Assembly: GCF_004010195.1 (NCBI RefSeq)
Contig: NC_057748.1
Location: forward strand, 27,690,180-27,754,179
Direction: 5' to 3'
DNA from: Chiloscyllium plagiosum
Taxonomy: Eukaryota
Length of the DNA: 64,000 nucleotides
A program made the translations under genes and the position numbers. Each line of letters opens with the position of its first letter. Position 1 is the first letter of the stretch. Below are positions 15,945 to 57,560 of the stretch, in pieces. The notes beneath the pieces were generated by a model. The model ran no database searches, was not told where the DNA came from, and saw only the letters and a program-made list of their open reading frames with translations.

Positions 15945-16234
15945 CTCTGAGGCAAACGATGACCCGGATCAGTCGCTGTCAGTCATGCGGCATTTTGATG
16001 TTTGTTTTAGTTTTGCAATGTAATTTCTGCAGCAAAACAGTATTTAGAAACAACATGAATATTAAAGGGCATCAGGAGCGAGTGAAATGCTTGTTCAGTT
16101 TGGTGAGTGGGGGGTTTCTGCTGCAATTGGCCCCAGTATTTTGTGTGTAAACTCGAGATCTGGGTAGAATGTGGACCAACATCCCTTTTAGACAATGACC
16201 ATGTTGCATTTGTGAACTATATAACGCAGTTCTG

Positions 16235-20483: not shown

Positions 20484-20665
20484 AGAATGGTTCAGAACGC
20501 TTGTTCTACCTATTCTTGTGAATATTACCTGGCCCGAGTTTGAAAGGCAGTACACTGTCTGGAAGCCATCAGCACAGAACAAAAATTTAGGAGAAAGTTT
20601 CCTGCTCATGGATTAGAAGTCTCGCCTTGGCATTTTTCTGGAGGTGGACAGCACCCTTATTCATG

Positions 20666-21742
20666 CCGCAGGGTGGCGCTGTGACTAATGTGTGCCCTCA
20701 ACAAAACTGCTGTGTGGTGCTTGACTGATTGTTTCTTTTTTTTCTTTATTCTTGAACAGAATGAGAGCGTCACTGGCTAGGCAGTGACACACATACACAC
20801 ACACGCACACACGAACACTCATCCCTGCTGCTAGGTGGTGCTCCAACTGCAGGTGATGCTCGAACATCAACACGTACTCATCCCAGCTGTTAGCTCCTGT
20901 TCTAGCTACTGTATATACAGAGGAACCTGGATTAGCTGAACGTGACGGACGGACAGTATTTCGTTTGAATACATAATTATGCAGATAATCAATTTGACCT
21001 AAAACAAAGGAAACCATACTAATCTGATGCTTTACTCTACCGGAGAGTTTAATTAAATGCAGTACGTTGATGAGGCTGCTATTCAAATGAACAAATTTTT
21101 GCATTCTGCAAATTGCAGGTTAAACTGAGAAGGACTGAACCCTTACTGCCACGTAAGTGTTGACGACAAGGTTTTAAAATAGAGAAAACATTTATTCAAA
21201 AAATTACACGATGAAACACAAAGACCAGAATAAATAATCCACACAGAACTCAGTCTATCCAACTAGACTTAATAATGCTGTTCCAAATATACACAACAAT
21301 GCCAATAAGCAAACTCCCTTTGAAAAACCAGTATAAATGGAACACATGCTTACAGATTAAAGTGGGAGGGCAGAAAAAGAGGGAGAGAGTTTCCACAGAG
21401 GACCCCGTTGAACTCCTGGCTAGTTCAGACTGAACTAAACTGCTCAGCTCAGCTGGAGAGCTGACCGTTCCCCTTTCTTTATACAGGTGACTTCTGAAAC
21501 GTGACCACTTTGGCCTGAAGTCTCATCTGTTTGCTAATAAACAAAAGACCTCTCAAAATCATTTTCATCTCAAGCCAAACCAGACTGATTGGAGCCCAAC
21601 CCGGTTTATTACCATCTGAAAAACATCAAGGATAGAGTATCCTTGAGCTTTGAGTACAAAACAGGAGTAGCTGTATGACACATACACGTGCACACACACA
21701 CACACACACACATACACACAGATCCCTGAGGCTAGGTGGCGA
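20666..21742 (+). promoter_or_regulatory. Cluster of CTCF-consensus-like motifs downstream of C1
   Basis: CCGCAGGGTGGCGC 20666, CTGCTGTGTGGTGC 20707, CTGCTAGGTGGTGC 20828, AGGCTAGGTGGCGA 21729. Confidence 0.55.
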
Positions 21743-22729
21743 TATGTTATACTTTTCCCCAAAATTCTTGCATTCTCAGTAGTTCTGTATACCTAAAATG
21801 ATCGAAACAATTGATCGTGCGGTACTTGCTTGAAATGAGTTATATGAGATAAAATGCATGGTCTGAGGAAGGCTCCAACATGGACCCAAAACATTAAGTT
21901 TGATTTCTCTTCTCAGAAGCTGCAAGATCTGCTCATATTTTCCAACAAATTATGTTGCTGTTTCTGTTTTACAGGAGTCACAGTTGTTTCGGTTTTAATT
22001 TGTTATTTGGGGTATTTGAGTTCATAATTTGTTGTCACATTAGACATTTTAAAATTACCTTTGTTATTGGCACATGTATCGAAGTACACTGAAACCTTTT
22101 GTGTTGCGTGCAAAACTGGTAGAATGCATCATTTAAAGTGTACTCGGGTAATAGAACAGAGCGAGTAATATAATGTTATGGATGAAGAGAAGCTGCACAA
22201 GGAGTAAAATCATTATTATATTTATTATTGGAGTGTTTCATTCAGAAGTCTGATAACAACACGGAAGACGTCATTCTTAAATTTGTTCCTGCGAATGTGC
22301 AAGCCTTTGTATCTGCTGCCCGATAGAATAGATTAAAATCGGGATGGGAGGGTTGTTTGATTATGTTGGCTTTCCTTCCGAGGCTGCGAGAAGTATCGAT
22401 GGAGTCAATACATGGAAGGTTGTCTTGTGTGCTGGACTGGACTGTGTTCACAACTGACCATATTTTCTTACAGTCCTGGGCAGAGCGGTTGACACACAGT
22501 GGTTGAATGGGGTTTGTGGGTGGGGCGGTTTTGGGGGGTGGGGTGGGGACGGGGTTGGATGGGGTTGGGGGCGGTCCGTGCGCTGTGTGCTGCTGCAGTC
22601 TCCTGAATGGGGAGCAGACTTTAAAAACTCCGAGCCCCAGAGGAAAGGCATTTAATCAATTAATCGAATAGTCGATTATCCAAACGAAAGAGTGCCCACC
22701 CATCTCGTTCGGATAATTGAGGTTCCCTG
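20918..22729. mobile_element. Tc1/mariner (Tigger-like) terminal inverted repeat ends
   Basis: TA|CAGAGGAACCTGGATTAGCTGAACG at 20918 and CGTTCGGATAATTGAGGTTCCCTG|TA ending at 22729 are ~55-bp imperfect inverted repeats. Confidence 0.55.
21120..21680 (-). mobile_element. LTR-like fragment
   Basis: Ends in TGACA (TGTCA on minus), with minus-strand TATAAA (~21478) and AATAAA (~21191); absent from unit 2. Confidence 0.45.
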
Positions 22730-22997
22730 TACTGCATATTATACACACTGCCCTAATCCCTGTCGGTAGGTGACGGTGTGAGACATAGATATCCCTTAGT
22801 GTCTGTGTACACATAGACATCTGATATATACCCCAAGTCCATCGCTAAAGGCTGCAGATACATAACGCCATTCTTGACAATAGGAGGCGCTATGAATGAT
22901 GTACATCTTCATCTGAGATGCTGGGTGATGCTCCGACTGACGATTTCATTTTCCCCATACTCATCACTGCCCTTATATTCTTAACAGTTTTGCATAG

Positions 22998-23695
22998 TGT
23001 TAGGACACGGGTAAACCCTCCTGCTTAATTTAAACCAGCAACACAGAAAAGATATACCCCGTGCAGTAATCTGTGAAAATCGAGAGGTCAGGAACTAAAA
23101 GAAGTAAAAATTAATAACTTTCTTTCTTAAAGTATAACACAGAATAATTGACAAACAACCATTAGCAACTCTTTTCTCTGACTTATCTTTTACTTTCCCT
23201 TCTATAAAACTAATCCAATACAACCCCCCGATTCAGATTTATTGAAAAATTCAAATTTCAAAACCAACCAGCTGTCGAATTTTCTCCTTTCAGATTCTGT
23301 CTCTAGGTCAGTGTCGATTTTTTTTCTCTCTGTGCAAACTCCATCTCCAGACAGGTACCTTTCAGACAGTTCTGACTAGCAGTCTACACCTGTTGGTGTC
23401 GTGGCAGTTGTCCTCCCAACAGTTCAATCTTCCCCGGTCTTATACCCCAAAGCATCGGCTTTTAAGATTGTCAATATACTAAATTCAAACTTGATTGGAA
23501 TTTGGTATTGTTCGGGATATAATTTAAACTGATTGGCCTAATTCGAAACTGTTTTATCGTTTCCAGGCAACCCAGATAATATAACTTTCGACTAAGTGTT
23601 ATGTTGTTGCCTTATTGTGAACACTTGGTGCAGATAATATAACTTTCTAGCTTCTAACTCTCTTAAAGGTGCAGTGTACCCACATCTTCATAACA
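22998..23695 (-). mobile_element. Solo LTR
   Basis: TGTTA...TAACA termini and a 4-bp TSD ATAG on both sides; on minus, TATAA (23440-44) precedes AATAAA (23238-43). Confidence 0.8.
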
Positions 23696-24839
23696 ATAGC
23701 TTCAGCGATCGAAATAATTGATCATGCAGCACTTGCTGTCCTGTTGCAAATTCTTCAAAAGTCCTGAAACTTTTCTTTCTTGTCATTGCAACTTTTAATG
23801 CATACGTTTCAGGGACAAATTCATGGAGTCAGGAAGTGAAAAAGCTGGACAGGACAGAAACAGATCGTTCGATAAACGTTGTCCATGCCAACCAGATGTC
23901 CGAATATGGTCCAGTCCCATTTGGACCATTCAAAATCCTTCCTATTTATGGGCCCGTCCACTTGAATGTATCATACTTAACTACACCCTTCGCCATCTCA
24001 TTCCACACACCTAGCAGCCCTTGTATGAAAATGTTGTACCCTTGTATATCTTTCCTCTCCCACTATAAACCTGTGCACTCTTGTTTTGGACCGCCTACAC
24101 TGGTTAAAAAAAAAGACATTGAATATTCACACTATCCATGTTCCTCATCATGTTATATATCTCTACAACGTCACCACTTAGCCTCAACGATTTACAGAGG
24201 CACTTCCTTTCATCTGCAGTGTTATAGACCCAGAGCTGGGACGTGAGATGAGGCCAGCTACATCTGTTTGTCACTATGGACATTATATACCACATGTTTT
24301 CTTCAGTCAACTTTCCATGTCTGTGTCACCTCAAATCGAAATTGGTGCAGCATTTCTTCCACATCCAGGCAGTCTAACAATATGTCAAATGAGCGAGTCT
24401 GGGTCTTTGACTGGACGGCCAATTTCACAGATATCATCAACTACAGTTGAACTGATTACGTCAATGGTTTTGATGAAGGCATCAACTTCTCCAGCTATTC
24501 CGAGTCACTGAATTGCAGCATGAAACATTTCTGTGTTTGCACGAGCAAGGAACACAAGTAAAACCCTTCTTACCCAGATTTGTCCCCCTTGGATTAGCAG
24601 GAAAATTGTTTGCGTCCTGACTCTTCTTATTTTAGGCCTTTTGTACCACTCGGTGGCACTTTGGTATGTATTTGCCTGCCAAGCTGACCTGTCTGACTCC
24701 AACACTTGTAGCTGCAATCGACTGCCATTAGATGGAGTTACTGCGTCTCCAGAACGTGCAAAATCGTGAAACTTTTCAAGTAACAGAACCGGTCCCGGTT
24801 CTGCTATGACAGCATCATTAGTAAACTTCAATCTGGCTC

Positions 24840-30819: not shown

Positions 30820-32700
30820 GGGATGTAAGGGCTGGAGGAGTTTATAGACTTAGGGACAGTTTGCGACTGGAAGAGGTGAGAGAGAGGAGTAAGCTGTCGG
30901 AGCTTGAGGAGATTGCAGTGATAGGGAGGCGTGTAGGGCTTCAAAAAAGCTTCACTATTTGGGACAGAATGTCTCAGCTGTAGGAGGGCTTAGAGATAAA
31001 GTGATAGTAAGGTCCTGGAGGAGATTGAAGTGATAAGTAGATGTTTCGGTGCTGGAGGGGTTTGTCGGGGTTGAACGAGATTAGAGATATAGGGGGAAGG
31101 CGCAAGGGCTCGAGGAGGTTACAGAGACGAGGAGGTAAGAGATTATGAGGCCAAAGTGAAGAGTGACGCTGCAGAACATGGAAGGTTTAGGCAGTGGTAT
31201 ATGTGCTGCAGGAAGTTGCAGAGGTGAGGAGGGATGTAGGGCTGGAGTTATGTCCAAAGTTAGGGAGAGGTATAGGGATTGGAGGGTGAGACAAAGATCA
31301 TGAGCGGTGTAGGAACTGGGGGGCAGCCAGAAGGTAGAGACACGGGTAGCCATTGGAGGAGGTGACAGAGATTGGGAATAGTGTTGATGCTAGAGACAGT
31401 TACAGAGCGATGTAGGTGCGATTGGATATATCTGTGGAGCAGTATTCGGATCTGAGGTGGCTACAGAGATTGGGATTGGTGCAGGCAATGGAGAGTTTTT
31501 TCTGAAATAATGAGGAACCTTCGGGTCTGGAGGGAAAGTCAGAGATATTAAGGCATGTAGGGTCTGGAGCAGATAACAGAGCGAAGGAGTGGTATATGGA
31601 CCTGGAAAGGTGATAGGATAGGGAGGGATGTAGGGGCTGCCATAGGTTACAGAAATAAGGAGAGATGTATGAGCTTGAGAAGTTTGCAGGGAGAAGAAAG
31701 GGAATATGTGCTGCAGGAGGTGACAGTCATAGGGAGGGATGTAGGGACTGGAGGTTTTACAGAAATACAGAGGGGAGTAGGGGCTGGAGGTGTTGGCAGA
31801 GGTAAGGAAATGTGTAGTAACAGGAGATGGTTAAATAAGTAGGGACGAGTGTTGACTCTATCAGATAAAACAGGTAGGGAGTGATGTAATGTCCAGAGGA
31901 TGTTGTAAAGATAGGGAGGAGTCTTGTGCGTGGAGAGAATGGCACAGATATGGAGTGGTGTAGGGACTGGTGGAGATATCTGAGGAGGGTTATCGGGACC
32001 TGAGTGATGACTGCGAAAGGAAAAGGTGTAGGCAGTGCTAGAAATAGTAAGGAATATCGCATCTGGAGGAAGTGTCAGAGGCAGGGAAAGGAAGGGAAAA
32101 CTGAAGAAGAATTTGGCGATAGGGCGGGATATTTGGGGCTGGAGGAGGTAAAACAGGTTTTGGCAGCGGTTCAGGTGCTGAAGAAGGTAACTGAGGTAGG
32201 AGGCATTGAGGACCATATGGTGATAAAGTGAGATGCATGGATTGGAGAATGTTTCACAGATATGGAGTGGTGTATGTTCTAAAGTAATTTATAGAAAAGG
32301 AGGAGGGTTCTGGGGCTGGAGGTGGTTTCAGGGTTAGGGAGAGGCAAAGGGCCTGAATATGGTTTTAGAGATGTTGAGGCATGTAGGGCCTGAAGGAGGT
32401 AACAGAGTTAGGGAGTGATATAGGAAATTGAGGAGGTGATAGGCTTAAGGAATGATTTAATGCTGGAGGTGATTATAGAAATAGTGAGAAGTGTGCGAGC
32501 TTGAGGTGGTGGCAGAAAGACGAATGGCTATAGGGACTTCTTATGGTGACAGCGATAGGAAAATGCATAGTGGTTTATAAGGTGACAGCGATTGAGAGTC
32601 GTGTAAGTGCTGGAGAATGTTACAGAGAAAGGTAAGTGCACAGGAGATGGAAGGTGTTAAAGAAGGAGGGAGAGGTATAGGTGCTAGATAAGTGAACGCT
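30820..32700. repeat. Purine-rich minisatellite, unit 2 copy
   Basis: Same unit as 5880-8090. Confidence 0.85.
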
Positions 32701-34480
32701 GTTGTGCGATCTCGTGTGATGCTAGAGTGATTGGAAACAGGAGTGAACTGCTGAATGAGAGATTCCAGAGGATAAAGAGAAGATGTCCACTTTGGGTATT
32801 TCGGTTGCCTCTGTCTTTCATGGGTCTGTTTGTGTAAATGTACGAGATGTCTGAGAAGGTGAGTGTTTGATGGATCCTCTGCATTTTCCCTCCTGCTCGT
32901 GGGTGAAACTACAGCTGCCTGTGTGATGTTTTGGAGCTGACGACTGACGGTGCCACGGGGTGGCGCTGCTGCTGCTGCTGCTTCTATTCGCTCAGTGATC
33001 AGAGAGGTTTCAACTCCTCCGCTGACATGCACTTTCCCTTCCACTCCATCTGGACGACAGGCCACACCATCTGCTGCCCCTTCACAAACAGGCCAATAAC
33101 AGCATCGCTTCAGCTCTCGGGAACTAAAATGAGGAACTCGAAATGCTCCCTCCCCCCAACCCCACATCTCAGGCCACCCGGGGTCAAGGGACTGCATTGC
33201 ATTGAACTCAGATGCAGAGGCAACTTTGAGACTGGCTCTTTGACTCTGTGATGCATCATTGAAGTGGCTTTAATGAAACTGCTAAAGGATTGTTGTTGTT
33301 GTACAGCAGCTTTCAAAGCAACAAATTTTAAAATAACTTGGAAGACTTCATCAAAGAAAGAGAAAGAGAAGACCATTCGGCCCTTCCACGTTTCTCTGCC
33401 ATTCATTACAATGAAGTGTGATTCTTTTCACAACTCCAATTTCCTATCCCTTATCTCTCGATAAGTTCATTTGAGTCTTCCATACGTACAGAGACTAACG
33501 TACCTTCATCCGACTCTGAGCGAAAGAATTTCTCTTCATCTCAGCCCAAATTAGCTGCTCTCCATCCCAGCCCTTTCAGAAATGTCCTGTTTATCTATTT
33601 TGCCAATCAAAGCAGATGATTCCACACTTTCCCACATCAAAGTCCATTTACTACTTCCAGTCCAGTTACTTACGCAGTCTGTATCCCGTTTCAGCCTTCC
33701 TATTCCACGTCAAAGCCTACTCTCCCAATGAGTTTTATATCTTCATTTCCTCCATCTGCCGAGTTGTCTTCACTGACCATTGTACCGTTACAGATTTAAA
33801 ATCATTGCAATACAGAGGCCAGCAGTGCATCTCCTCTGCCAAGGGTGCAGACTTGAAGCTGATCTGTGAATACGTTTTTGAAAGGCAAATGTTTAACATT
33901 TTGAAAAGATTTGGAGAGGTCAATCAAAACCTAAAGTCATAAAGGTATCCAACACAGTAAAAGGTCTTTCAGACCATCAAGGCTGAATTGATCAAAAATG
34001 ATCCCCAAACTATCCTAATCCCATTTTCCATCACGTGCAGAACTAAATATTTCTTCAATGTTATGAGAGGTTCTGCCTCTACCATCCTTACAGGCGGTGT
34101 GTTCCACATACCCAACACTCTGTGACCCGATGACACTAATGAAGCTCAAAGAAAAGAGAAGTGCAATTTTTTTTTAAAAACTGTATGTTTTCAAGAGGAT
34201 TTGGTTACAGTTCTTTGGGCTAAAGGGATCAAAGGGTATTGGGGGACAAAGTGGGAACAGGAGACTGATTTGGATGATCAACCATAATGATATTCAATGG
34301 CAAAGCAGGCTCGATGGGCTGAATAGTCGGCATCTGCCCCTATTTGTTCAGTTACGATTAACACAAAGTCACACGTTCACTGTTGGTAACCCCGAAATTT
34401 CAGGTAATGGAAAACGATGTGAGAAGCCAGGAATAAATCGGTGAAAACCCGATGTGTCGATTTGCCTCGTCACTGTCCCT

Positions 34481-34490
34481 TCATTTGCAT
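34481..34490 (+). promoter_or_regulatory. V2 light-chain promoter decamer/octamer
   Basis: TCATTTGCAT ~140 nt upstream of the ATG, followed by AT-rich AATAAATAGA. Confidence 0.85.
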
Positions 34491-34630
34491 TCCAGTGAAT
34501 AAATAGAGACATGAAATCCCTCTCCGGTTTACCAGCACTTGGTGGAGGTGTTCTCGGCTGTTCACAACAAATAGTTCAACTGAAGGCAACACACTCACAG
34601 CTGACTGTTTCCACGCATTCTCCAGCGGAA

Positions 34631-35109
34631 ATGTCTCCAATGATGCATCTGCTGTGGGCTCTGCTACTCCATGTAACTGGTCTGAAACTGCTCTGGATTA
34701 ATCTCTGACCATGAAATACCACTTGATTTTGTTTCACACACGCCGGCAAACTCTCTTAATGTGCACATTTTGTTTCTTTCATTGTAGGCACTTTAGCTGT
34801 TCCCATCCTCAGAGTCCAGTGTCCGACCCAGTCTCCACTGGTCAGACTGCCCGATTCGAGTGTGCGATGCAGAATGGTAATGTGAGCAGCTACGCTGTGC
34901 ACTGGTACCGACAGAGTCCTGGAGAAGCCCCGGTGTGGGTGATGAGGTACACTACTGGCGGTGACATAAACAGGGGCATCGATTTCACTGATCGTTTCCA
35001 ACCTTCTCGAAACTCCTCCAGTGACAGTTACATCCTAACCATTGGAAACCTGGTTTCCAGTGACTCTGCCGTCTATCACTCTGCTGTGTTGGATAGGTCA
35101 GCTGGCTAT
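34631..35109 (+). pseudogene. Ig light chain V2 (type I/sigma-cart): leader 34631-34679, V exon 34788-35109
   Basis: Leader MSPMMHLLWALLLHVTG with GT/AG intact. A 4-nt deletion (AATC) near 34810 shifts the frame, and the second Cys is Ser (TCT 35080). Confidence 0.93.
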
Positions 35110-35137
35110 CAGAGTGAGACAGGCTAATAGAATAACT
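35110..35137 (+). promoter_or_regulatory. 12-RSS of V2 (inactivated)
   Basis: CAGAGTG (CAC broken), 12-nt spacer, AGAATAACT. Confidence 0.8.
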
Positions 35138-35466
35138 CAATGTGCAGAACCGCTCCAATTGAAAACAAGTGTCTGAAACATCACAGACTAAAGGCATGTC
35201 AGCTCTTCTCGAAATATCTTTCTGAGCAGTTTCTTTCGCAGCCCAACTGAAATTTCAAAAGTTTCTGTCAGATCTCTAGAGTTGTTAGTTTCTGTATCGA
35301 CCCTGTTCTGTCAAAGTCCTCAGAGATGAGAGGGGTTTGGGGATCAGCCTTTCGTCTGTGAATTGGTCCGAACCACATATCCCTCATTTCCCCGAGAAAG
35401 GCAGAATGTGGAAAAGGATTGATTACTAATAGTTTTCCCTCTTTATCTCTCTCCAGTCCAAGATGG

Positions 35467-35543
35467 GTTTTTTGGTGAGCCGTGCCATTGTAACGCCTCT
35501 CTGTGATTCAACTTTGGAGGTGGGACGGCCCTGACAATTCGGA
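35467..35543 (+). pseudogene. J2 with 23-RSS
   Basis: GTTTTTTGG-23-CTCTGTG (35467-35505), then FNFGGGTALTIR; splice donor mutated to ATAAGT (35544). Confidence 0.88.
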
Positions 35544-35689
35544 ATAAGTGAATTTGTTTTGATATCTCTCATCGCAATCATTCAGTTTAATACAATTTTT
35601 ATCCCTTCGGTGTGGATTTCGTCCTCCGGATTTTACCAATTTACAATTTATGCATTTTGCAATGAATCTAACCTAGCACAAGTCGTTGT

Positions 35690-36390
35690 TCTATCACATT
35701 TCACTCACTCACTGTCTCACTCACTCACTCAGTCACTCTCTCTCTGACATACACACATATACGCGCACACACACACACAAGTTAGTGTGTTATTTATAAT
35801 GATCATTCTCTTTCTCACGAAAACACACAGGTTAGAGATTATGTCAGTAATTCGGTCTCACACAAACTCACAGGTCCGAGATATATTAATAATTCTATCT
35901 CTCACAAATACATACAGGTCAGAGGTTATCAGAATAATTCTCTGTCACTTACACAAGTGCGTGGAACATTAAAAGTTCCCGATCTGTCTCAAATGCACAG
36001 GTCAGAAATTCGAACAATTCTTTTTCACAACATATGCAGGTCATGGTTCCTTTCATAATTGTCTCTCATATGCTGACATAGACAGGCCAGATTCTTAATT
36101 ACATTTATAATTCTCTCTCTCCCTCTCTCGTGTTCAAATACAAAGCACAACCAGGTCAAAGATTATCTCAATAATTACCTCTCATGCGAGCAGGTCAGCA
36201 TGTTATCTGTATATTAATAATTCGTCTCTTCCACACACACTTGTCACACCATTATTTGCAGTAATAATTCTCTCTTACACATAAACGTAGATAAATCAGA
36301 GGTATTATCAATAATCATCCCAACATTCAGGTCATTGTTGCACTGATAATTCCCTTTCACTCAGACACAGATCAGAATGCTATTCACATC
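35690..36390. repeat. J-C intron minisatellite, unit 2 (truncated)
   Basis: Same motif. Confidence 0.8.
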
Positions 36391-37310
36391 AGACTTGATG
36401 GGCCAGTTGGTTTCACACTGTTCTGAAGCTCTCGATTTCTTACACAAACAATGGACATGTAGAGAGAGACACACAGAAATTAATATCTTCTCTGTCAATC
36501 CAGAGTGACAACCAAATTTCAACATGGTTAGAGTTCACTCCACAATTATGCCAGCATTTGTCGCACTTATACAAATCCTGAAACTAAGTGATTAGCAAAG
36601 GGCACAAACTTGTGAGAGCTGACATGTGTCTTTTGAGGAGAGATTAAGTAGTTTTGGCCTGTAGTCACTATTGTTCAGAAAATTGACAGGACAACCAATT
36701 TAGGTGGATAACACGCTAAAGGGGAATGACAAAGAAAAGATGGGGGGATGATTCTTCACGAGATGTAATCTAGTCCGAGGGGTCATGGTTTTTGGATAAG
36801 TGGTAGTAGATTTAAAACAGAGATGAGGGGGAGCGATTTCTTTCAAAAGGTTGTGAATTTACGGAGCTCCATGGACGCTGGATCACTGAGTAACTTTGAG
36901 GAAGAGACAGAGTTTTAATTAAGAATGGATTGAGGGGCTGATGGGGAGAGGGAAGGAAAATGAAGTAGTCCATTGTAGCAGTGTATGGTCGAATAAGCTG
37001 AATGACCTCCTTCTGCCCTTGTGTTCGATCTTGTGTTCTCATGAGACACTCTGTAGTGACTAGACCACCTTATAAAGGTTGAGTGTCTGTTACCACAAGA
37101 GAAACAGCTGAGATAACATTGTAGACAACCATCTGTCATCAAAGCATGACCAACGATAATCTAAATAGACCTCTCTGAATGCGGATGATATACAGTGTCT
37201 GCATCCTTTGGGGAGATGAAGAATGATGATTACAAACTACAACTGTCCTGCATAACATGGCAAGGAAGATACAGGTGAGGATGATAAAACTATCGGGATC
37301 TTATGAAATA

Positions 37311-39037
37311 TAACAGCCAAATACCAATTCCAATCCAAACTAGAGACCCAGACAAACACCCAGCAAGTATGGCAAGGACTTAATGACATCACACGTTCTA
37401 AAAAGAGACAATGCAAAATAGCAGAACGATGACACATTCCTCCCATTTCAACACCTTATATCCTCGCTTTGAACAGAATTTTGGCGGAGAGGTAACACCT
37501 ATTCTGACAAGTCCTGTCGAACCTATCACAACAGTCACTGCATCAGAGGTCAGATCAGTTTCCTTCATGTGAATCCAAGGAAAGCAATGGGGTGGAGTAC
37601 CAGGCCGTGCAAGCCATGCGCAGGTCAACTAGTAGAGGTCTTCTCGGGCATCTTCAAACTGTCACTGGAGCAGGCTACTGTCTCTGCCTGTTTCAAAAAA
37701 AAAGGGCCAACATCATCCCTGTGCCTAAGAAGGCTCATGCAGCATGTCTCAATATATACCACCTCGTGGCCCTAACTTCGGTTGTCATGAAGTGCTTTGA
37801 AAGGTTGATCATGGCATTAATCAACTCCAGCCTCCCTCCTGCTCTTCACCCACTCCAATTTACCTAACTGTCCACGTCAGAAGCCATATTACTAGTCTTT
37901 CACTCCTCCCTAGAACATCTTGACACCAAGAACAGTTACATAAAAATCCAACTCATTGATTACAGTTCAGCCTTCAACACTATTATCCCCACAAGTCTGG
38001 TTAATATTTTTATTGATCTCGGACTAAGCCCCACTCTCTGCAACTCGACGCTCAGTTTCCGGACCATCAGGCCACAATCAGTGAAGGCTGGGGTAAATAG
38101 TTTATCCTCACTAACACGCCACACTGGAGTCCCCAGGGGTGTGTACTCAGCTCCCTACTGTACTCACTGTATACCCATGGCTGTGTCGCAAAATACCAGA
38201 CTCATGCCATTTACAAGTTCGCTGATGACACCACCATAGTCAGTCCAATCTTAGATGGCGGCGAAACAGATTACAGACGGGAGATGGAAGACTTGGAAAA
38301 ATGATGCACTGAGAACAATCTAGCGCTCAAATGCTGGCAAACCCAAAGAACTCATTATTGAGTTTCAGCGGGATAGAACTCTTGCCCCCCACCCCACACA
38401 CACACACACACATTAACAGCACAGAGGTGGAACGAATGGAGAGTGTCAAGCTCCTGGGAGTGGTCATCCACAACAAGCTTTCATGGACTCTTCATGTAGC
38501 CGCACTAGTTACAAAGGCCCAATGACTTCTCTTCTTCCTCAGGCAGCTGACAAAATTTGGCATGACGGCCATCGAGAGCATTGTGTCTGGATTTATCACT
38601 ACCTGGTATGGCAACTGTTCGATTCACGATCGGAGACGGTTACAGAGTTTGGTGAACTCGGCCCAGACAATCACAAAGGCCAACCTCCCATCTGTGGAAT
38701 CCATCTGCCACCACAGCTGTCAACGAAAGGCTGCCAGCATTCTCAAAGATCCATCCCACCCTGGCAATGTTTTTCTACAACCTCTACCATCGGGGAGAAG
38801 TTTAAGAAGCCTGAACACACGCACCAGCCAGTTTTGCCATAGTTTCTACACTGCTGTTGTTAGAATTCTGAATGAACTCACAAAATTTTAACAATCATCT
38901 GTACCTTTATTTTTTTTTGCTGGTTTACTTATTTACTTCTCTATGCTACTTAACTCTGTGTTCAGCCTGTATTGCTCATAAGACAAAGTTTTTCATTGTG
39001 CCTCTGTACACGTGACAATAAATTCAATTCCATTCAA
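37311..39037 (+). mobile_element. 5'-truncated Rex1/Babar-like LINE (decayed RT)
   Basis: IIPVPKK...VALTSVVMKCFERL...DYSSAFNTI...YKFADDTT (38215-29); AATAAA+(ATTCA) tail; absent at the homologous site of unit 1 (~19610). Confidence 0.85.
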
Positions 39038-39719
39038 ATTGCAGAACAGACTCTATGGGCTGAACAGCCTACTTCTCTTCCTCCGTTTGAAAATCCTTCC
39101 AAGGCAAACTGTATCAGTCTAACGCTATAAAGTTTTGTTCAACTGTGATTGGATATAAAAATTCTTCAGTTGACTCTGAGTCGGTCCTGAGACCTTTCAC
39201 GCATACCATGAAAAATAGATTGCAGAAAAAAAGTGTTGGAATCAGTGTTGGTAGTGAACTGTATTTCACTCCATGCAGAAAAAAAGGAAGTGATACCTAC
39301 ACAGTAAAGCAACACACTGACTGTGACCATAACTGTCTAATTTCTCCTTGAGGTCTGGGAAATGGGGGAACCCGCTGGCATACATTCTGAACAGTATGAG
39401 TAAGGATCTGGTAACGGTGCACAGAATGTCTGAGCAGTTTCACATCTCCCAGCTCACACTGAAGATGTTCACATAAGATGATTGGCCCATCGGGATTGGC
39501 TGCATTGGTCGGCAGATGGGTGGGGGAGTCTGGTCCAAATGCTTATTCAATTCATTTTTGTGGATATTACCGAGCTCGAGTTTGAAAGACAGTAGACTCT
39601 CTGGAAAAGTCAGAGCAGTGCAAACATTTCGAGGTGTGCTTCTAGTTGATGGGTTCGGACCACAGGCTCGACATTTTCTCAGATACATTTTCTGAAAGTG
39701 CACACCATCCTCATCCCTG

Positions 39720-40530
39720 ACGCTGGTTGGCACTGTGACTCATGTATGTCCTCAACAAAATAGCTGTGTGGTGCTGTGACTGACATGCTACTCTTTCCTG
39801 CCGCTGGGTGGTGCTGTAACTGAAACATGTCTGTGCCATGCACACACGCAGACATACACACACACTCACGGAGAAAATGCTGGAAAATCTCAGCAAGTCT
39901 GGCAGGATCTGTAAGGACAGAAAAGAGCTGACGTTTCGAGTCTAACTGACCCTTTGTCAAGGATCAGTTAGACTCGAAACGTCAGCTCTTTTCTCTCGTT
40001 ACAGATGCTGCCAGACCTGCTGAGATTTTCCAGCATTTTCTCTTTTGGTTTCAGATTTCAGCATCCGCAGTAATTTGCTTTTATACACGCACTCATCCCA
40101 CCACTAGGTGGTGCAGTAACTGAACTACATTTCTCTCTCTCTCTCGCTCGTTTCAGATTTCAGCATCCGCAGTAATTTGCTTTTATACACGCGCTCATCC
40201 CACCACTAGGTGGTGCAGTAACTGAACTACATTTCTCTCTCTCTCTCGCTCGCTCTCTCTCACTCTCTAACATCCTTGCAGCTGGGTAATGCAGTCACTG
40301 ATATATATATTATATACATATATATACACACACAGTATATAACGTGTGTGTGTATATATATATTAACATACACACAGATATATATACATAAATGCATGTA
40401 TGTGTGTGTGTGGTGCATGGACACACACACATTCTCTTATTCCTGCCTCTCTGTGGTTCTCTAACTGAAAAATATACATGGATCATGCCCACACATACAC
40501 GCGCACTCATGCTGCCACTGGTGCTGCTGT
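39720..40530 (+). promoter_or_regulatory. Expanded tandem array of CTCF-consensus-like motifs
   Basis: CCACTAGGTGGTGC x2 (40101, 40203), CCGCTGGGTGGTGC (39801), plus degenerate copies at 39720, 39761, 40279 and 40515. Confidence 0.6.
39871..40080. mobile_element. Palindromic Penelope-like terminal-repeat remnant
   Basis: ~84-bp arms with ~5 mismatches and a ~4-nt loop (39871-40042); contains GAAACGTC. Confidence 0.6.
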
Positions 40531-41052
40531 AACTGAAATGCATATATGATATACACACACAGACACACACACACACGCGCAAACACACACACACTCAGAT
40601 ATCCCTGCTCCTGGGGAGAGTGGTGAGTTATTTTTCCCCCTGAACACATTACTCCCTGAGATTTATCAACACTTCTGTATACTTTCAGTGATCAAAGCAG
40701 TTGATCATGCAGCACTCGTATGTGATGTGTTGCTTGAGCCAAAATGCGTGTTCTAAGGAAGAATCACTGGACATGAAATGTTAACTTAGATGCCAGACCT
40801 GCTGAGATTTTCCAGCAAGATTTGTTTTTGCTTCACCTTTACAGTATTCACAGTTATTTCAGTTTTAATTAGTTATTTGGGGTATTGGAGTTACTTATTT
40901 ATGCTCACTTTTTTAAAATTTGATTTATGATTGGTACATGTACTGAGGTACACTTAAAACGTTGGTCCATGTAGTACAGATAGATCATATTATGCAAAGT
41001 GTGCTAGATAATAGAACAGGGCGTGGAACATAATGCTAAGGCTGAAAAGAGA

Positions 41053-41368
41053 TTAGATTTTAGATTACATTACAGTGTGGAAACAGGCCCTTCGGCCCAA
41101 CAAGTCCACACCGACCCGCCGAAGCGAAACCCACCCATACCCCTACATTTACCCCTTACCTAACACTACGGGCAATTTAGTATGGCCAATTCACCTGGCC
41201 CTGCACATCTTTGGACTGTGGGAGGAAACCGGAGCACCCGGAGGAAACACACGCAGACACAGGGAGAATGTGCAAACTCCACACAGTCAGTCGCCTGAGG
41301 CGGGAATTGAACCCGGGTCTCTGGCGCTGTGAGGCAGCAGTGCTAACCACTGTGCCACCGTGCCGCCC
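41053..41368 (-). mobile_element. Full-length HE1-type tRNA-derived SINE
   Basis: On the minus strand: GGGCGGCACGGTGGCACAGTGG (A box), GGTTCAATTCC (B box), CR1-like 3' tail ending in TAATCTA repeats. Confidence 0.9.
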
Positions 41369-41429
41369 ACAGGGGTGCACAATGAGCAAGATCGTCATTA
41401 GATTTACAATTTGAGAGATCCATTCAGAA

Positions 41430-42362
41430 GTCATTGAGTCTTACAGTCATAGACATGAACAGCATGGAAACAGACCCTTCGGTCCAACCTTCCCATGTCG
41501 ACCGGATGTCCCAATCCAATCTCGTCCCACCTGCCAACAGCCGGCTCATATCCCTGCAAACCTTTCCTATTCATATACCCATCCAAATACCTTTTAAATG
41601 TTGCATTTGTACCAGCCTCCACCACGTCCTCTGGCAGCTCATTCCATACACGTACCACCCTCTGCAAGAAAGGTTTGCCCCTTTCCCCTCTCATCCTAAA
41701 CCTATGCCCTCTAGTTCTGGATTCCCCTACCCCAGGGAAAAGACTTTACCTATTTATCCTATCCATGCCCCTCAAGATTTCAAGGAGCTATGAACCTGCA
41801 CTTCACGGTCTCTTTGTTCAGCAACACTCCCGAGAACAGTACCATTAAGTGCATGAGTCCTACTAAGATTTGCTTTCCCAAAATGCAGCACGTCGCATTT
41901 ATCTAAATTAAACTCCACCTGCCAGTTCTCAGCCCATGTCTGATCAAAGTCCCGTTATAATCTGAGGTAACCTTATTCGCTGTCTACTACACTTCCAATT
42001 TTGGTGTCATCCAGACAAATGTGACGTGATGTATTCAGTCAAGTCTAATTCTACAGCGAATTATACATTGAACGGAAGAGCGTTGGGAAAGGTTGATGTG
42101 CAGAGAGATCTGGGAGTGCAGGTCCATTGTACCCTGAAGGTTGCTGCACAGGTGGGTACAGTGGTCAAGAAGGCATATGGTATGCTTGCCTTCGTTGGAC
42201 GGGGTATTGAGTATAAGAGCTGGCAAGTCATTTTAAAATTGTACAAGACATTGGTTCTGCTGCATTTAGAATACTGTGTACAGATCTGGTCGTCACATTA
42301 CCAAAAGGATGTGGACACTTTGGAGAGGGTGCAGAGAAGGTTTATGAGAATGTTGCCTGGTA
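41430..42362. mobile_element. Abutting CR1 fragments in opposite orientations (minus 41430-42020, plus 42026-42362)
   Basis: Plus ORF QRDLGVQVH...KKAYGMLAFVGRGIEYKS...LEYCVQIWS..LERVQRRF; minus QRVVRVWNELPEDVVEAG. Confidence 0.85.
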
Positions 42363-44179
42363 ATTAGGAATTAATGGTGGGTGCTGGGCTCAGCTGCCAA
42401 AGGTCCTGTGAAAGAATGAAGTTGAGGCGGGAATATATTCTGTCAGTGCAATCTTTCTGTGCTTTTCTGCATTCCATGAGATCCTTCAGTTTTGGTTGGC
42501 CATGCTACACGCCCTCCCTCACACTCTTATTCTCCTTCGGCCAGTGAAAAGATGGATTTGTCAAAAAATAGTTAAGGCATCAAGGGAGAAAGGGGGGATG
42601 TGACATTGAGGTCATGGCCAAATTGAATGACGGAGCAGGCTCGAAGGGCCTCCTCTTGCTCCTAGCTCCTGTGTGGCCCAAACCGTAGTTCTTTGCCTGT
42701 TCTTCTGCCTCAGGCATGTCGAAGGGGCCTGACAAATGAGAATTAAAAATGTGCTGTTGGCTGGTGTTCACCACCTGGCAAGAACATGTACTGGGTTGGC
42801 AAGTACACAGTGTGCTACGCCAACTATCTGTGGAGCAACTATGTAAATAAGTCCAAAGAGTGATTTCACCTGGTGGGAACTGTAAATTACCATTACCGTG
42901 ATAGCTCTATTAACACCTACTCCTCCTCCCCCTCCCTCATTGCAATCCTTTTGACTCAAATGTGCACGTATGCCTCCCATTGGCATTTCTTTTCTTTCCA
43001 AACACACACACAGACACACACATGCTCTCTCTTTTCCTCACACCTATCATCACACACTGGACAGAAAAGCTATTCAAACGTGGGCAACGTCACAACACAA
43101 CCTGAAGTGGCACTCTCTCTGAAAGATGTAGCTTGGTGCCATGACGCATTACAGCATGGGCACAGAACCAAACAGTCTTCGTATCTGCGGATTTAACATG
43201 CAATCAAATTAAAATCAAGAAAGATCCTCAAAATTGATTCCATTGAATCCTACCCAGGTGTTTTTCGATACGAATCTTAGCAACTGCAGTTTTGATCAGG
43301 AACCAAACTGCAAATAACTTCCAGGCCTTTCGACACAAACTGTTACCCAGAGTCGAAAAGTCATCTTTAGCTCACAATTCACAGCTCCAGAACAACATTG
43401 ATAAAAGTTTTCAAATACAAACGATGAAAAATCATTGGGATTTCTAACAGGTGGAGCTGACCGACTCAGTTTGCACGGGTGAGGTGGTGCTCAACAGTGC
43501 TGGGGATTGGATGGCTGAAGTAAGTGTGAGGGCAGGTCGATCTGGGGGCTGTTACATGTGAGAGATGGGCAATAAGAGATAGTTGCTGATGTATACGCAG
43601 GATAATGAGCCAACGCAATAAATATATGCAAAACACAGAACGGAATATCTAACGTCATATGTCAGTTCCACAGAACTGACTCATTAATCGCAAGTGATCT
43701 ATGAATTGCACTAGCAGCCTATTTAGGGTCATCAATGTAGCTTGGAAAGTGATTCAATTATGCATGCTAACTCTACACATGTGGATAGGAAGGGAACAGT
43801 CCTCTCCAGCCAAAATTAATATCTTTGATTACTCTTGGACCAGCATCCACTTCCTCTTATTCACTCCCCATAGAAAGGCATTTAGAGACGAATGTATCAA
43901 CGTTGAGGCATTGGCCCTTGTTGCAATCCAAACATTCCCCTTTCCTCTTGTGATATAAGTTATGGCTCCCTTTGAAATTTTGTATTCTTGTGTCGTGTTC
44001 TGATGAATTCAAAAAGCAAAAATATATGATACGATATGATGTTGGCTGCAAGTCACAGAATGTTGCCAATCAACCAATGCCAGATTATAGCCGTGCTGAT
44101 GCTCCAATCGAGCCTACTTGCATCTTTGCTCATCCAAATTTTTCGATGTGACCCTCCATAACCTCTTCCCCCCGCCTTC

Positions 44180-47400: not shown

Positions 47401-48129
47401 GCATGAACACAGACTCTTTGGTTCATCTCGTCTAGTTATGCTAAACTAGTCCAGTCCTATTTACCAGCATTTGCCCCATAACTTTCCAAAATCTACCAAT
47501 TCATGTCCCCATCAAAATGCCTGAGAAGTATCTAATTGTGACTCACTTCCTGTGACAGATTATTCCACGCAAACACTGCCCTCTGTGTGAAAAGATTGCC
47601 TCTCAGGTCCCTTTGAAGTCTTTCCTTTCACCTTGCAACGGTGCCCTCCAATTTTGGACTCCTCTCCTCTGGGATAATACCTTAGCTATTCATCCTATCA
47701 TTCACCTTATAATTTTATAAGTCTCTATAAGATTTATAAAACTGTCAGCCTCCAACGGTCCAGGGAAAATAACCCCAGATCTTTCAGCCTTTACCTGTAT
47801 CTCAAAACCTCCAACCCTGGCAACACCCTTTTCAGTCTTTTATGAACTCCTTGAAGTTAAAGAACATCTTTCCTATAACAGAGAGACCAGAACTGAACAT
47901 ATTCTAAAAGTGGCCCAATCAAAGTCTGTACAGCCCCAACTCTTATACTCATAGCACTGATAGTTTAAGGCAAAGATGCCAAAGGCCTTCTTCCCCAGCC
48001 ATCTAACTGTTATTCCATTTTCAATGAACTATGCACCCTTATATCTGTTGGTTTTGCAGCACTCACCACGGTATCCTATTAAATGTCCAAGGCCTGTCCT
48101 GATTTTACTTACAAGGTGCAACACTTTAT

Positions 48130-51100: not shown

Positions 51101-51690
51101 GAGAAACTGGAGGAGAATATAGAGGTAAGGCAGGATACAGGGGCTGGAGGAGGTAGAAGAGATAAGCACGGGCTGAAATATAATATGGTGATAGGATTGG
51201 ATTTATGTAGTGGAACACGTTACCTAGATAAAGAATGGTGTGGGATCTGGAGGAATTTACAGAGGGTTGGGGTTCAGGGTCTGGCGGTAGCTCCAGATTT
51301 AGGAAGAGGTAAAGGGCCTGAAGAAGTTTGCAGAGATATTGAGGTATGTAGGGCCTGGAGAAGGCTGGACCCTGAGAAGGTGATAGGGATAAGAAGGATT
51401 TAGTGGCTGGAGGAGATTATAAAGGTGGCGAGGAGTTTAAGAGCTTGAGGTGGTTACCAAAATGGGTATTGGGGCTTGTTGAGATGTCAGAGCTAGGGAA
51501 ATGTATATTGGCTGATAAGGTGACACAGATGGGGAGGTTTGTAGGAGCTCAAGAAAGTTACAGAGACAGGGATGTGTGGAGGAGATGGAGGGAGTTAAAG
51601 AGATAGGGAGGTGTGAAGGAGATGGAATATGTAAAAGAAATAGGGAGGGTTATACGTGCTGCATGAATGAAAGATCGTGTGAGTTCCGGT
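48130..51690. repeat. Purine-rich minisatellite, unit 3 copy (interrupted by a CR1 3' end at ~49880-50310)
   Basis: Same unit; also at 47020-47390. Confidence 0.85.
49880..50310 (+). mobile_element. CR1 LINE 3' end inserted in the minisatellite
   Basis: AGGCTGAAGGATGACCTGATA...GAATGAGCTGCCAGAGGAGGT...CTATGACTCTA tail. Confidence 0.75.
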
Positions 51691-53433: not shown

Positions 53434-53443
53434 TTATTTGCAT
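53434..53443 (+). promoter_or_regulatory. V3 light-chain promoter decamer/octamer
   Basis: TTATTTGCAT ~145 nt upstream of the ATG. Confidence 0.85.
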
Positions 53444-53585
53444 TCCGGTAAATAAATAGAACCGGGGACTCACTCTCCAGCTTACCATCACTGGGTGCGG
53501 ACCAGCTTCCAGGATTTTACAACAAACTGTTCGACTGAGGATAACACCCTGACAGTTGGTTGTTCTAGTGCATTCTCTAGTGAAA

Positions 53586-54056
53586 ATGTTTATGACGCAG
53601 CATCTGCTGTGGGCCCTACTGATCCATGTAACAGGTCAGGAATTGTTCTAGATGAACGTCTGTCAGTTAAGTATCATTCGGGTTTGTTTCAAACCCACTG
53701 GCAAAGTCATTCCATGTCTCTCTGTATTTCGTTAATTGTAGGTACCTTGGCTGATCCTGTCCTCAATCAGAGTCCAGTGTCCGACCCAGTCTCTGCCGGT
53801 CAGACTGTCCAGTTGAAGTGTGCAATGCAGAATGATGATGTGGACAGCTACGATGTGGACTGGTACCGACAGAGTCCCGGAGAAGCGCCAGTGTGGGTGA
53901 TCAGACATGAAACGGATGATGATATATACAGGGGCACTGGCTTCACAACCTTCTCGAGACACCTCCAGTAACAATTTCATCCTAACCATTGAAAATCTGG
54001 TCTCCAGTGACTCTGCCATCTATTATTGTGCTGTGTGGGATAGCTCAGCTGGTTAT
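53586..54056 (+). pseudogene. Ig light chain V3 (type I/sigma-cart): leader 53586-53634, V exon 53742-54056
   Basis: Leader, splice sites, C-W-C and YYCAVWDSS are intact. A single 11-nt deletion after 53946 (relative to V2) splits it over the ORFs 53495-53971 and 53907-54359. Confidence 0.94.
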
Positions 54057-54084
54057 CACAGTGAGGTTGGCCAATACAATAACT
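54057..54084 (+). promoter_or_regulatory. 12-RSS of V3
   Basis: CACAGTG, 12-nt spacer, ACAATAACT. Confidence 0.93.
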
Positions 54085-54397
54085 CACAGTGCAAAACCGC
54101 TCAAACTTACAAGAGCATCGAACCATCATTTGCTAAGGGCATGTCAGATCTTCCAGCAGTATCTTTCTGTACCATTTCTTTCGCAGCCCAGATAAAATTT
54201 GAGGTTTTTCTATTAGATTTGCAGAGATGTTGGACTCTGGATCAAACCCTGCGCTGTCAGTGTTCTGAGGGACTGAGGGATTTTGGAATCTCTCTCTCGT
54301 CTGATGAGCCCGATTATCCTCCTGAGAAATACAGAATGTGGAAAAGGGCAGATTACTAATATTTTTTCCTTCTTTGCTCCCCTGAAGCACGAGGTTG

Positions 54398-54474
54398 GGT
54401 TGTTGTTGAGCCACGCCATTGCAATGTCTCTCTGTGATGGATCTTCGGAGGTGGGACTGCCCTAGCTGTTCGGA
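54398..54474 (+). other. J3 segment with 23-RSS, apparently intact
   Basis: GGTTGTTGT-23-CTCTGTG (54398-54436); WIFGGGTALAVR; donor GTAAGT at 54475. Confidence 0.92.
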
Positions 54475-56771: not shown

Positions 56772-57560
56772 GTAGTTTTACAGAGATTGGGGTATTGGAG
56801 ACATTGTCAGAAGTCGCGAGGTACCTAGGGTCTGGATGAAGTGGCAGAGATAGAGAAGGGTGTTGGAACTGGAGGAAGGTATGACGATAAATTAGGATGT
56901 ATGGCTGAAGAAGGTGACGGAGATAGGGAGGTTTCCAGGGTCTGAAGAAGATTGCAGAGATAGGGAGGTGTTCAGGAGCTGGAGGAATAAATGATAAATA
57001 GGTTAACTACAGGGAATTAAAGAGGTTACAAAGTTGGGAAGTGGTGACTTGTCTGGAGGAGTTACAGAGATTGAGAGGGGTTCTGAGGCTGAAACTAGCT
57101 ACAAAAGTAGGGTCAGGCATAGGGTCTGAAAGGGGACCGTTGAGATATTGAGGACCCTGGAATAGGTAACAGAGATAAGAGTTCTATGGGATAAGGAGGG
57201 TGGAGGAGGTTATACAGATAGTGCGGAATGTAAGGGCTTTAGGAGGTTACAGAAAGATGAACAGGTGTAGGGGATTGTTGCTGTGAGAGAGACAGGCAGG
57301 CGTGGAGTAAGTGATAACGTTACAGATTTAGGGAGGTGTATAGGAGCTGGACAGCATTAACAATAGGGAGAGGCATGCATAATGGAGGATTTAACTTACA
57401 CATGGAGTCCTGTAGGGGCTAGAGACATATGCAAGAGATAGAGTTAAAGAAATAAGGAGGGGTATAGGGATGGTAACTATTTTACAGTGTTGGAGTGGTG
57501 TAGGAGCTGGAGAATGTTACAGATTGGCAGGGCAATATGAGCTGGATGATGAAAGCTGGT
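56772..57560. repeat. Purine-rich minisatellite, unit 4 copy
   Basis: Same unit. Confidence 0.8.

What the first reader, a model, noticed from the sequence alone, without database searches (positions are those of the whole stretch)
39720..40530. Tandem array of same-orientation CTCF motifs between Ig clusters (candidate cluster-boundary element)
Seen: a ~30-bp unit CTCATCCCTGCCRCTRGGTGGTGCWGTAACTGA repeats at least 7 times, spaced by CA/CT microsatellites. It includes two CCACTAGGTGGTGC and one CCGCTGGGTGGTGC, all on +. Known: this matches the vertebrate CTCF core (CCASYAGRKGGCRS), and the mammalian IgH 3' end has a multi-site CTCF anchor that limits RAG scanning. Shark Ig clusters rearrange largely within a cluster. 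Inference: each duplicated mini-cluster carries its own CTCF array that insulates it from its neighbour, which could explain cluster autonomy. I am not aware of this being described for shark IgL.
Basis: partly seen in the sequence, partly recalled or inferred. Interest (0 to 1): 0.8.

Follow-up and report, generated by a model that had tools for sequence, protein, structure and literature searches.

The report
Decaying CTCF-like repeat between antibody genes
This is a 41-base tandem repeat that sits in most gaps between duplicated shark antibody light-chain genes and resembles the binding site of the chromatin-boundary protein CTCF, but most copies have decayed, so it is likely the remnant of an old boundary element rather than a proven working insulator.

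Summary
The repeat is real: 8 co-oriented units at 39709-40538. It is a ~41-bp minisatellite copied with the light-chain (sigma-2/NS5-type) gene unit. It occurs in 7 of 9 spacers of this ten-unit locus, and the tight unit patterns give only scattered hits elsewhere in the genome. Only 3 of the 7 ungapped units score as CTCF motifs (recalled MA0139.1 matrix), and two of those are one 99%-identical 102-bp duplication. Across the locus 8 of 44 distinct units pass, and losses match neutral decay. Class majorities point to an ancestral cluster of strong, same-direction motifs; strong motifs run 12 forward to 2 reverse. By the usual convention they face the next cluster, like IGCR1/Sis and unlike the IgH 3' anchor. 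This copy lies between two dead clusters; the only intact rearranging cluster has no CTCF-grade array on either side; IgNAR-, lambda- and sigma-type loci show none. New lead: kappa-type clusters carry a similar 43-bp repeat 3' of C. No binding data could be obtained. The scan's notes held no earlier report of this. Verdict: real and locus-specific, likely a decaying ancestral CTCF cluster; insulation unproven.

The parts
39709..40538 (+). Tandem array of the ~41-bp CTCF-like unit (array 1 of the spacer between clusters B and C); 7 ungapped units and 1 gapped unit
39717..39735 (+). Unit u1, weak CTCF match (4.9 bits, p 3.4e-4)
39758..39776 (+). Unit u2, no CTCF match (-10.9 bits); weak in all five paralogous copies compared
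39798..39816 (+). Unit u3, CTCF motif 12.1 bits, p 1.5e-5
39871..40042 (.). Inserted dispersed repeat, 84-nt inverted arms (94%); not part of the unit
   Evidence: 1282 exact matches of a 29-mer; no Rfam family at its gathering score
40048..40252 (+). Recent 102-bp tandem duplication (99%) carrying the tail of the insert and unit u4 twice
40098..40116 (+). Unit u4, CTCF motif 17.1 bits, p 8.9e-7
40200..40218 (+). Duplicate of u4, CTCF motif 17.1 bits
40276..40538 (+). Three decayed units (40276, 40443, gapped ~40511) separated by TA/CA microsatellites; no CTCF match
34483..35545 (+). Cluster B upstream of the array: octamer (34483), leader, V (frameshift after the leader, second Cys lost, heptamer CAC changed), J with 23-RSS; no C exon follows
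53436..54470 (+). Cluster C downstream of the array: octamer, frameshifted V with 12-RSS (54057), 23-RSS and J; no C exon
20655..24740 (+). Paralogous spacer after cluster A (broken C at 15646-15952): array units 20663 (12.2), 20825 (7.2), 22760 (10.3), 22874 (13.7) and single motifs S1 24643 (11.7), S2 24722 (10.2)

Best explanation
The array is a ~41-bp minisatellite that was copied along with the shark light-chain gene unit and is likely the decaying remnant of an ancestral cluster of same-direction CTCF sites in the spacer between clusters. Shown: the repeat, its confinement to this locus's spacers, its orientation, and decay at a rate not distinguishable from neutral. Inferred: the ancestral spacer held about seven forward motifs within ~4 kb. 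If CTCF bound them, they would stall cohesin arriving from the downstream cluster and so keep that cluster's J end and enhancers away from upstream V genes, in the manner of the downstream IGCR1 site or Sis. In this copy, between two dead clusters, two independent motifs survive. They may still bind CTCF but are probably not needed: V and J lie ~390 bp apart in deletional orientation, so proximity would explain most within-cluster joining.
For: Locus-confined: 5 of 5 BLAST hits and 4 of 6 tight-pattern hits lie in C39:27.64-27.73 Mb; looser patterns give 6 and 1 scattered singletons off-locus against 3 and 0 in controls. Arrays lie in 7 of 9 spacers and none outside the ten units. CTCF-likeness exceeds chance: permuted-matrix p 0.004 for the majority unit, 0.0009 with its CpG restored. 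Majorities of positional classes score 15.7, 12.1, 17.1, 10.5, 9.6, 17.7 and 10.2 bits for 7 of 10 classes. Strong motifs run 12 + to 2 - in 180 kb; 0 of 300 permuted matrices reach that. Decay: 8 of 44 distinct units pass p<=1e-4; high-information positions are less conserved (0.64) than low-information ones (0.77); at the CpG in positions 5-6 the damaging change (TG, 11) outnumbers the improving one (CA, 5). Score lost per difference is 1.99 bits against 1.9-2.1 +/- 0.32 in neutral simulation at matching divergence. Flanking clusters B and C are broken and lack C exons.
Against: No binding data (one search listed no ChIP run). The CTCF matrix and the forward-direction convention are recalled. 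The neutrality test is weak (40 members, star tree, sd 0.32), and 8 of 10 units are relics or pseudogenes, so relaxed selection there says little about intact genes. Mean member score (4.9) exceeded simulation at matching divergence (0.5-2.0; P<=0.014), which could reflect mild selection or a stronger ancestor. 5 of 9 spacers keep a forward motif of at least 12.9 bits, and the strongest (22.6) lies just upstream of an intact germline-joined gene. The related kappa-type repeat has mixed orientation (22 with, 13 against the gene), which fits an enhancer better than a one-way barrier.
Confidence: 0.55

Rival explanations
1. A working one-way boundary today: one or two surviving forward CTCF sites per spacer suffice, individual units turn over, and the barrier stops a downstream J from reaching an upstream cluster's V (a legal 12/23 deletional join 10-25 kb away) or stops enhancer sharing.
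For: Position and direction are what such a barrier needs. Strong motifs run 12:2 forward. 5 of 9 spacers keep a motif of at least 12.9 bits and 7 of 9 one of at least 10. Skate TAD boundaries carry inward-facing CTCF motifs (PMC10115646 passages). Shark rearrangement is reported to stay within clusters (PMC5192425 passage).
Against: No selection signal. The spacer upstream of the only intact rearranging cluster has array units of at most 2.0 bits and a best motif of 10.5; its downstream array is deleted, leaving one single motif. IgNAR-type clusters hold 3 strong motifs in 180 kb and no array.
Confidence: 0.2
2. An old light-chain 3' enhancer built of ~40-bp repeats, shared in origin with the kappa-type 3' repeat, whose CTCF likeness is incidental (other factors, e.g. 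E-box binders, read it).
For: The kappa-type repeat lies about 0.9-1.5 kb 3' of 7 of 8 C exons (one more unit at 3.4 kb), has a 40-43-bp period and mixed orientation, and matches the unit at 23 of 36 positions, 11 of 17 outside the CTCF span (binomial p 0.001; column shuffle p 0.00025). The unit's tail is better conserved (0.74) than its high-information CTCF positions (0.64). Primate IgH hs1.2 carries multiple copies of a 40-bp element (PMC3068965 passages).
Against: Neither intact gene of this locus has the array on its 3' side. CAGGTG occurs in 2 of 45 units here and 5 of 33 kappa-type units. An unrelated contig carries a 43-bp CTCF-core repeat with the same tail (C49222), so the likeness may be convergent.
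Confidence: 0.13
3. A minisatellite that never had a function; it resembles CTCF by chance and was carried along by tandem duplication.
For: Neutral decay. The majority unit has G at two positions where CTCF prefers A (positions 6 and 9). Any repeat will resemble some known motif if many are considered.
Against: Permuted-matrix p 0.004-0.0009. Two further motifs outside the repeat (S1, S2) lie in the same spacer and point the same way, with class majorities of 17.7 and 10.2 bits. A similar repeat lies 3' of kappa-type C exons.
Confidence: 0.12

Closest known systems
Mouse Igh IGCR1 (downstream CBE) and Igk Sis
   Same: CTCF motifs upstream of a J-side recombination centre and facing it. IGCR1 impedes upstream RAG scanning and Sis CBEs are downstream-oriented (PMC11153149 passages; PMC6439775 passages).
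   Different: Those lie between V and (D)J segments and hold two CBEs each; here the motifs lie upstream of a whole V-J-C unit, are parts of a minisatellite, and binding is untested.
Mouse Igh 3' CBE cluster
   Same: Several co-oriented CTCF motifs a few kb 3' of the C-exon position.
   Different: Igh 3' CBEs are convergent with the downstream IGCR1 CBE, i.e. they face back into the locus. These face away from the upstream cluster (direction convention recalled), and the last cluster of the locus has no array within the 105 kb to the contig end.
Tandem CTCF sites of the clustered protocadherins
   Same: Forward CTCF motifs repeated with each duplicated gene unit; tandem sites described as topological insulators (PMC7811963 passages).
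   Different: Pcdh sites are promoter-linked, bound, and paired with reverse sites at a downstream enhancer; here only one reverse motif (14.1 bits) follows the last gene and most forward motifs have decayed.
Primate IgH 3'RR hs1.2 40-bp repeat
   Same: A ~40-bp tandem element 3' of Ig constant genes, with low-complexity spacers and variable copy number (PMC3068965 passages).
   Different: hs1.2 is a tested enhancer in mammals; no sequence comparison was made and no homology is claimed.

Membership tests
CTCF-bound tandem insulator array | Several matches to the CTCF core motif | tested here: met
   3 of 7 ungapped units at p<=1e-4, 2 independent; matrix recalled
CTCF-bound tandem insulator array | Same orientation of the motifs | tested here: met
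   45 + vs 2 - unit hits; 12 + vs 2 - strong motifs in the locus; copies are paralogous, not independent
CTCF-bound tandem insulator array | Motif-specific conservation | tested here: inconclusive
   No signal among paralogues, low power; one biased statistic pointed the other way; no other species' DNA was available
CTCF-bound tandem insulator array | CTCF/cohesin occupancy and insulation | not testable with these tools
   No ChIP run was listed
Igh 3' CBE-type anchor | Motifs face back toward the V-J-C unit they follow | tested here: not met
   All on + strand, 3' of + strand clusters; Igh arrangement; convention recalled
Igh 3' CBE-type anchor | Located at the 3' end of the locus | tested here: not met
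   Only in internal spacers; none after the last cluster
Dispersed satellite / transposon-borne CTCF site | Many copies away from Ig loci | tested here: not met
   0 unit hits in 371 kb of control DNA; one off-locus look-alike array
Ig 3' enhancer repeat (hs1.2-like) | Present 3' of functional genes | tested here: not met
   Absent 3' of both intact genes of this locus; the kappa-type look-alike is present 3' of 7 of 8 C exons
Ig 3' enhancer repeat (hs1.2-like) | Enhancer activity in B cells | not testable with these tools
   needs reporter or chromatin data
IgL sigma-2 (NS5, type I, sigma-cart) clusters | One V (12-RSS), one J (23-RSS) about 390 bp apart, one C; mix of rearranging and joined genes | tested here: met
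   NS5-2 germline 880 bp vs rearranged ~490 bp (PMC2435157 passages); C 76% identical to horn shark light chains; no tree was built

The most novel reading that the evidence does not exclude
Sigma-2 and kappa light-chain clusters of sharks share an ancient 41-43-bp CTCF-core minisatellite in their spacers, inherited from the ancestral light-chain unit, which gives each mini-cluster its own loop boundary and helps keep V-J joining and expression cluster-autonomous.
Probability: 0.15. Interest if true: 0.8.

Novelty: new member of a known kind. Interest (0 to 1): 0.42.

Why it matters
Why shark Ig clusters rearrange independently is an open question (within-cluster joining is reported). A co-oriented CTCF-motif repeat in the spacers, pointing the way a barrier would have to point, gives named coordinates for a direct CUT&Tag or 4C test. 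The similar repeat behind kappa-type C exons raises the possibility of a very old light-chain regulatory element. If the best explanation holds, this particular copy is only a fading relic between two pseudogenes.

Tried and rejected
ChIP data: a run search with the word ChIP on window 32500-42400 listed none; that is no evidence. No reads were laid. A CTCF-like motif about 1.5-2 kb upstream of V (32950, 51919, 57807) was rejected as a conserved site: it scores 9-17 bits in 4 of 9 paralogues, 4.4 or less in the other 5, and is deleted in the intact cluster. A first selection test gave P<0.001; once the leave-one-out step was also simulated the same statistic gave P 0.07-0.44, so it was dropped. 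Structured RNA: 38 Rfam matches, all below gathering scores, none a hammerhead. 'Core plus TGA(C/G)T tail' as a general extended CTCF motif: 1 of 107 distinct strong hits outside the C39 locus has that tail, and two genome-wide patterns found only the C49222 array or nothing. Arrays in other antigen-receptor loci: no unit clusters on C25 (two stretches, 334 kb), C31 (60 kb), C44 (180 kb), C45, C14 or C100836; IgM clusters were not identified and not tested. A PDB search of the C domain did not help name the isotype. Rao 2014 and Hara 2018 were not held.

Full report
OBSERVATION. The sequence at 39700-40560 holds a repeated unit on the + strand. A profile built from it finds 7 ungapped copies in the stretch, and nhmmer adds a gapped copy at ~40511. 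The basic period is 40-41 bp: 16 of 33 short spacings in the locus are 40 or 41, and a paralogous array at C39:27772366-27772690 is a plain 40-bp tandem of 7.6 copies. In the finding the later spacers are stretched by microsatellites and by an inserted dispersed repeat with inverted arms (39871-40042), a 29-mer of which has 1282 exact matches in the genome. Scored with the JASPAR MA0139.1 matrix (recalled, not from a tool), 3 of the 7 ungapped units pass p<=1e-4: 39798 (12.1 bits), 40098 and 40200 (17.1 each); the rest score 4.9, -3.1, -6.6 and -10.9. The two best are one 102-bp tandem duplication at 99% identity. So the array is real, but it has two independent CTCF-grade motifs.

SETTING. 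The window is G000:C39:27690180-27754179. With 361 kb of neighbouring DNA the locus resolves into ten tandem units, all on +, at about 65-80% DNA identity: two relics that lost V-J-C, then eight with a V. V has a 12-RSS, J a 23-RSS about 390 bp away. This fits NS5 (sigma-2, type I), whose germline and rearranged PCR products differ by ~390 bp (PMC2435157, passages; naming from PMC5192425 and PMC2193156, passages). The closest named proteins are Chiloscyllium light chains (98%, 92% and 90%). Only two units look intact: a rearranging one (V at 27679378, C at 27683970) and the last, germline-joined one (VJ at ~27806000, C at 27808132). The finding lies between cluster B (frameshift after the leader, second V cysteine lost, RSS heptamer changed, C exon deleted) and cluster C (frameshifted V, no C).

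DISTRIBUTION. The profile finds 45 units on + and 2 on - in the 425-kb region, all inside the locus, and 0 in reversed controls. Arrays occupy 7 of the 9 spacers between units. They are missing after the intact rearranging gene (only an inverted piece of flank is left) and between clusters C and D, and there is none before the first unit (assembly gaps nearby) or in the 105 kb after the last. Genome-wide, BLAST gave 5 of 5 hits in this locus, a tight pattern 4 of 6, looser patterns 5 of 11 and 2 of 3 with off-locus singletons near control level (3 and 0), and the plain array matched only itself. Forty control stretches (371 kb without N) gave 0 units. It is therefore not a dispersed satellite.

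IS IT CTCF? The majority unit scores 12.1 bits, 15.7 with its CpG restored; column-permuted matrices do as well in 0.4% and 0.09% of 20,000 trials. Strong motifs (>=12.9 bits) number 12 on + and 2 on - in the 180-kb locus; permuted matrices average 1.0 and 1.2 and none of 300 reaches this; controls have 11 in 371 kb. These motifs are paralogous, so they are not independent. Sorting units by position in the array, class majorities score 15.7, -8.1, 12.1, 6.0, 17.1, 10.5, 9.6 and -1.3, and two separate motifs about 2 kb further on (S1, S2) score 17.7 and 10.2, all forward (one member there was off by a base and was corrected in later calls). I infer that the ancestral spacer held about seven forward CTCF-like motifs in ~4 kb.

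IS IT KEPT? Of 44 distinct units, 8 pass p<=1e-4 and 3 pass 1e-5; the mean score is -1.3. High-information positions are less conserved (0.64) than low-information ones (0.77) or the 3' tail (0.74). At the CpG in motif positions 5-6, the change that destroys the motif (TG, 11) is commoner than the one that improves it (CA, 5); position 9 is G in 27 and A in 10. Within positional classes (40 members in 10 classes; gapped units and the homogenised array before c7 left out) the score lost per difference from the class majority is 1.99 bits, against 1.9-2.1 +/- 0.32 in neutral simulation at matching divergence. An earlier version looked significant but was an artefact of its leave-one-out step. 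One result points the other way: mean member score 4.9 against 0.5-2.0 simulated at matching divergence (P<=0.014; 36 members in 9 classes). Simulated majorities fall below the observed ones, so a stronger ancestor explains this as well as mild selection. Power is low and most units are dead genes. By spacer, 5 of 9 keep a forward motif of at least 12.9 bits. The spacer upstream of the intact rearranging gene is not among them (best 10.5; array units at most 2.0); the one upstream of the intact joined gene has the best motif of the locus (22.6).

MECHANISM. By the usual convention (recalled; Rao 2014 was not held) a motif read as CCAC..AGGTGGC on + faces downstream and stalls cohesin coming from that side. 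The arrays thus face the next cluster. The better analogues are the downstream IGCR1 site and Sis (PMC11153149, passages). A downstream J joining an upstream cluster's V would be a legal deletional 12/23 join, and a forward barrier in the spacer is where it would have to be to hinder that. Sharks have CTCF (PMC7471279, passages), and skate TAD boundaries show inward-facing motifs (PMC10115646, passages). Against a needed barrier: V and J are ~390 bp apart, decay looks neutral, and the arrays are not general.

OTHER IG LOCI. A search with the C domain located other loci (150 of 505 candidates scored). Isotype names below are my inference from sequence and copy number. Two C25 stretches, C31, C45, C14, C100836 and four IgNAR-type clusters on C44 show no unit array; C44 has 3 strong motifs in 180 kb. 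The kappa-type locus on C11 has its own repeat: 35 hits (33 distinct) near 7 of 8 C exons in 200 kb, mostly 0.9-1.5 kb 3' of C, period 40-43, CTCF scores up to 11, 22 with and 13 against the gene. I found it through CTCF-motif clustering, after two hits of the unit profile there. Its majority matches the C39 unit at 23 of 36 positions in the same register, and at 11 of 17 outside the CTCF span (binomial p 0.001, column shuffle p 0.00025). An exact 25-mer occurs 38 times in the genome, 23 of them on contigs or stretches with a listed light-chain C hit; 15 on eight small contigs were not checked. This may be common ancestry. The caution is contig C49222, picked up by the unit pattern: next to a Cir_N-domain exon it carries a 43-bp repeat with CTCF scores of 13.6-16.6 and the same kind of tail, so convergence is possible.

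LITERATURE. Ten searches of the held library. 'cartilaginous fish + immunoglobulin clusters + CTCF' and 'shark + IgL + insulator + recombination' gave 0 papers. 'shark + CTCF + immunoglobulin + cluster' gave 41, of which 25 were listed and none is on this subject by title. The shark IgNAR papers listed show 0 occurrences of CTCF. Most subscription journals are not held, so this is weak evidence of novelty; no supplements were read. The scan's own notes held nothing on this.

VERDICT. A real, locus-specific, co-oriented CTCF-like minisatellite; likely the drifting remnant of an ancestral CTCF cluster in the sigma-2 spacer (0.55), possibly still a working one-way boundary (0.2), an enhancer repeat (0.13) or a chance look-alike (0.12). 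It works like a tandem CTCF array only if binding is shown; it is not an Igh 3' CBE-type anchor.

Noticed in passing
G000:C11:91.52-91.71 Mb (L049-L068), e.g. 91558563-91558903; also C11:81686492-81686990 (L170): 40-43-bp repeat 3' of kappa-type C exons, in direct and inverted pairs, CTCF-like and partly E-box-like, similar to the finding's unit (23 of 36 positions).
   Followed up: partly
G000:C11:91554846 and 91555940 (L053); paralogues near 91608765, 91635206, 91664182: A divergent pair of strong CTCF motifs (13.5-19.0 bits) 2.5 and 1.4 kb upstream of C in 4 of 8 kappa-type clusters.
   Followed up: no
G000:C25:45204004-45254992 (L117-L122): Three to four different CTCF motifs (12.7-19.8 bits) upstream of V in lambda-like clusters, all in the gene's direction; in C25:44.15-44.24 Mb the motifs all point against the nearest V's direction.
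   Followed up: no
L047 (G000:C49222:10-1177): Tandem 43-58-bp repeats with strong CTCF motifs (13.6-17.0 bits) on both sides of a Cir_N-domain first exon, facing each other.
   Followed up: partly
L048 / G000:C94280:12726-12838: Three co-oriented CTCF motifs within 115 bp, one matching the finding's unit; no Ig exon seen in the 13-kb contig.
   Followed up: partly
G000:C39:27760370 and 27857319 (L026, L036): Two C1-set Ig-superfamily exons only ~28% identical to the light-chain C, one of them inside the locus.
   Followed up: no
window 6000-8000, 31000-33000, 48000-52000, 56900-57500: Strongly G/A-skewed tracts of degenerate 37-bp repeats upstream of each V (GC skew up to +0.64).
   Followed up: no
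window 35805-35941, 55762-55847, 63466-63558: Degenerate 38-45-bp repeats in the J-C introns.
   Followed up: no
G000:C39:27805926-27806400 (L031): Germline-joined, in-frame VJ with a very short junction and an intact C exon; last gene of the locus.
   Followed up: partly
window 39871-40042: Inverted-arm dispersed repeat inside the array; earlier scan notes describe short Penelope-like inserts in this genome, but Rfam gave no hammerhead match here.
   Followed up: partly
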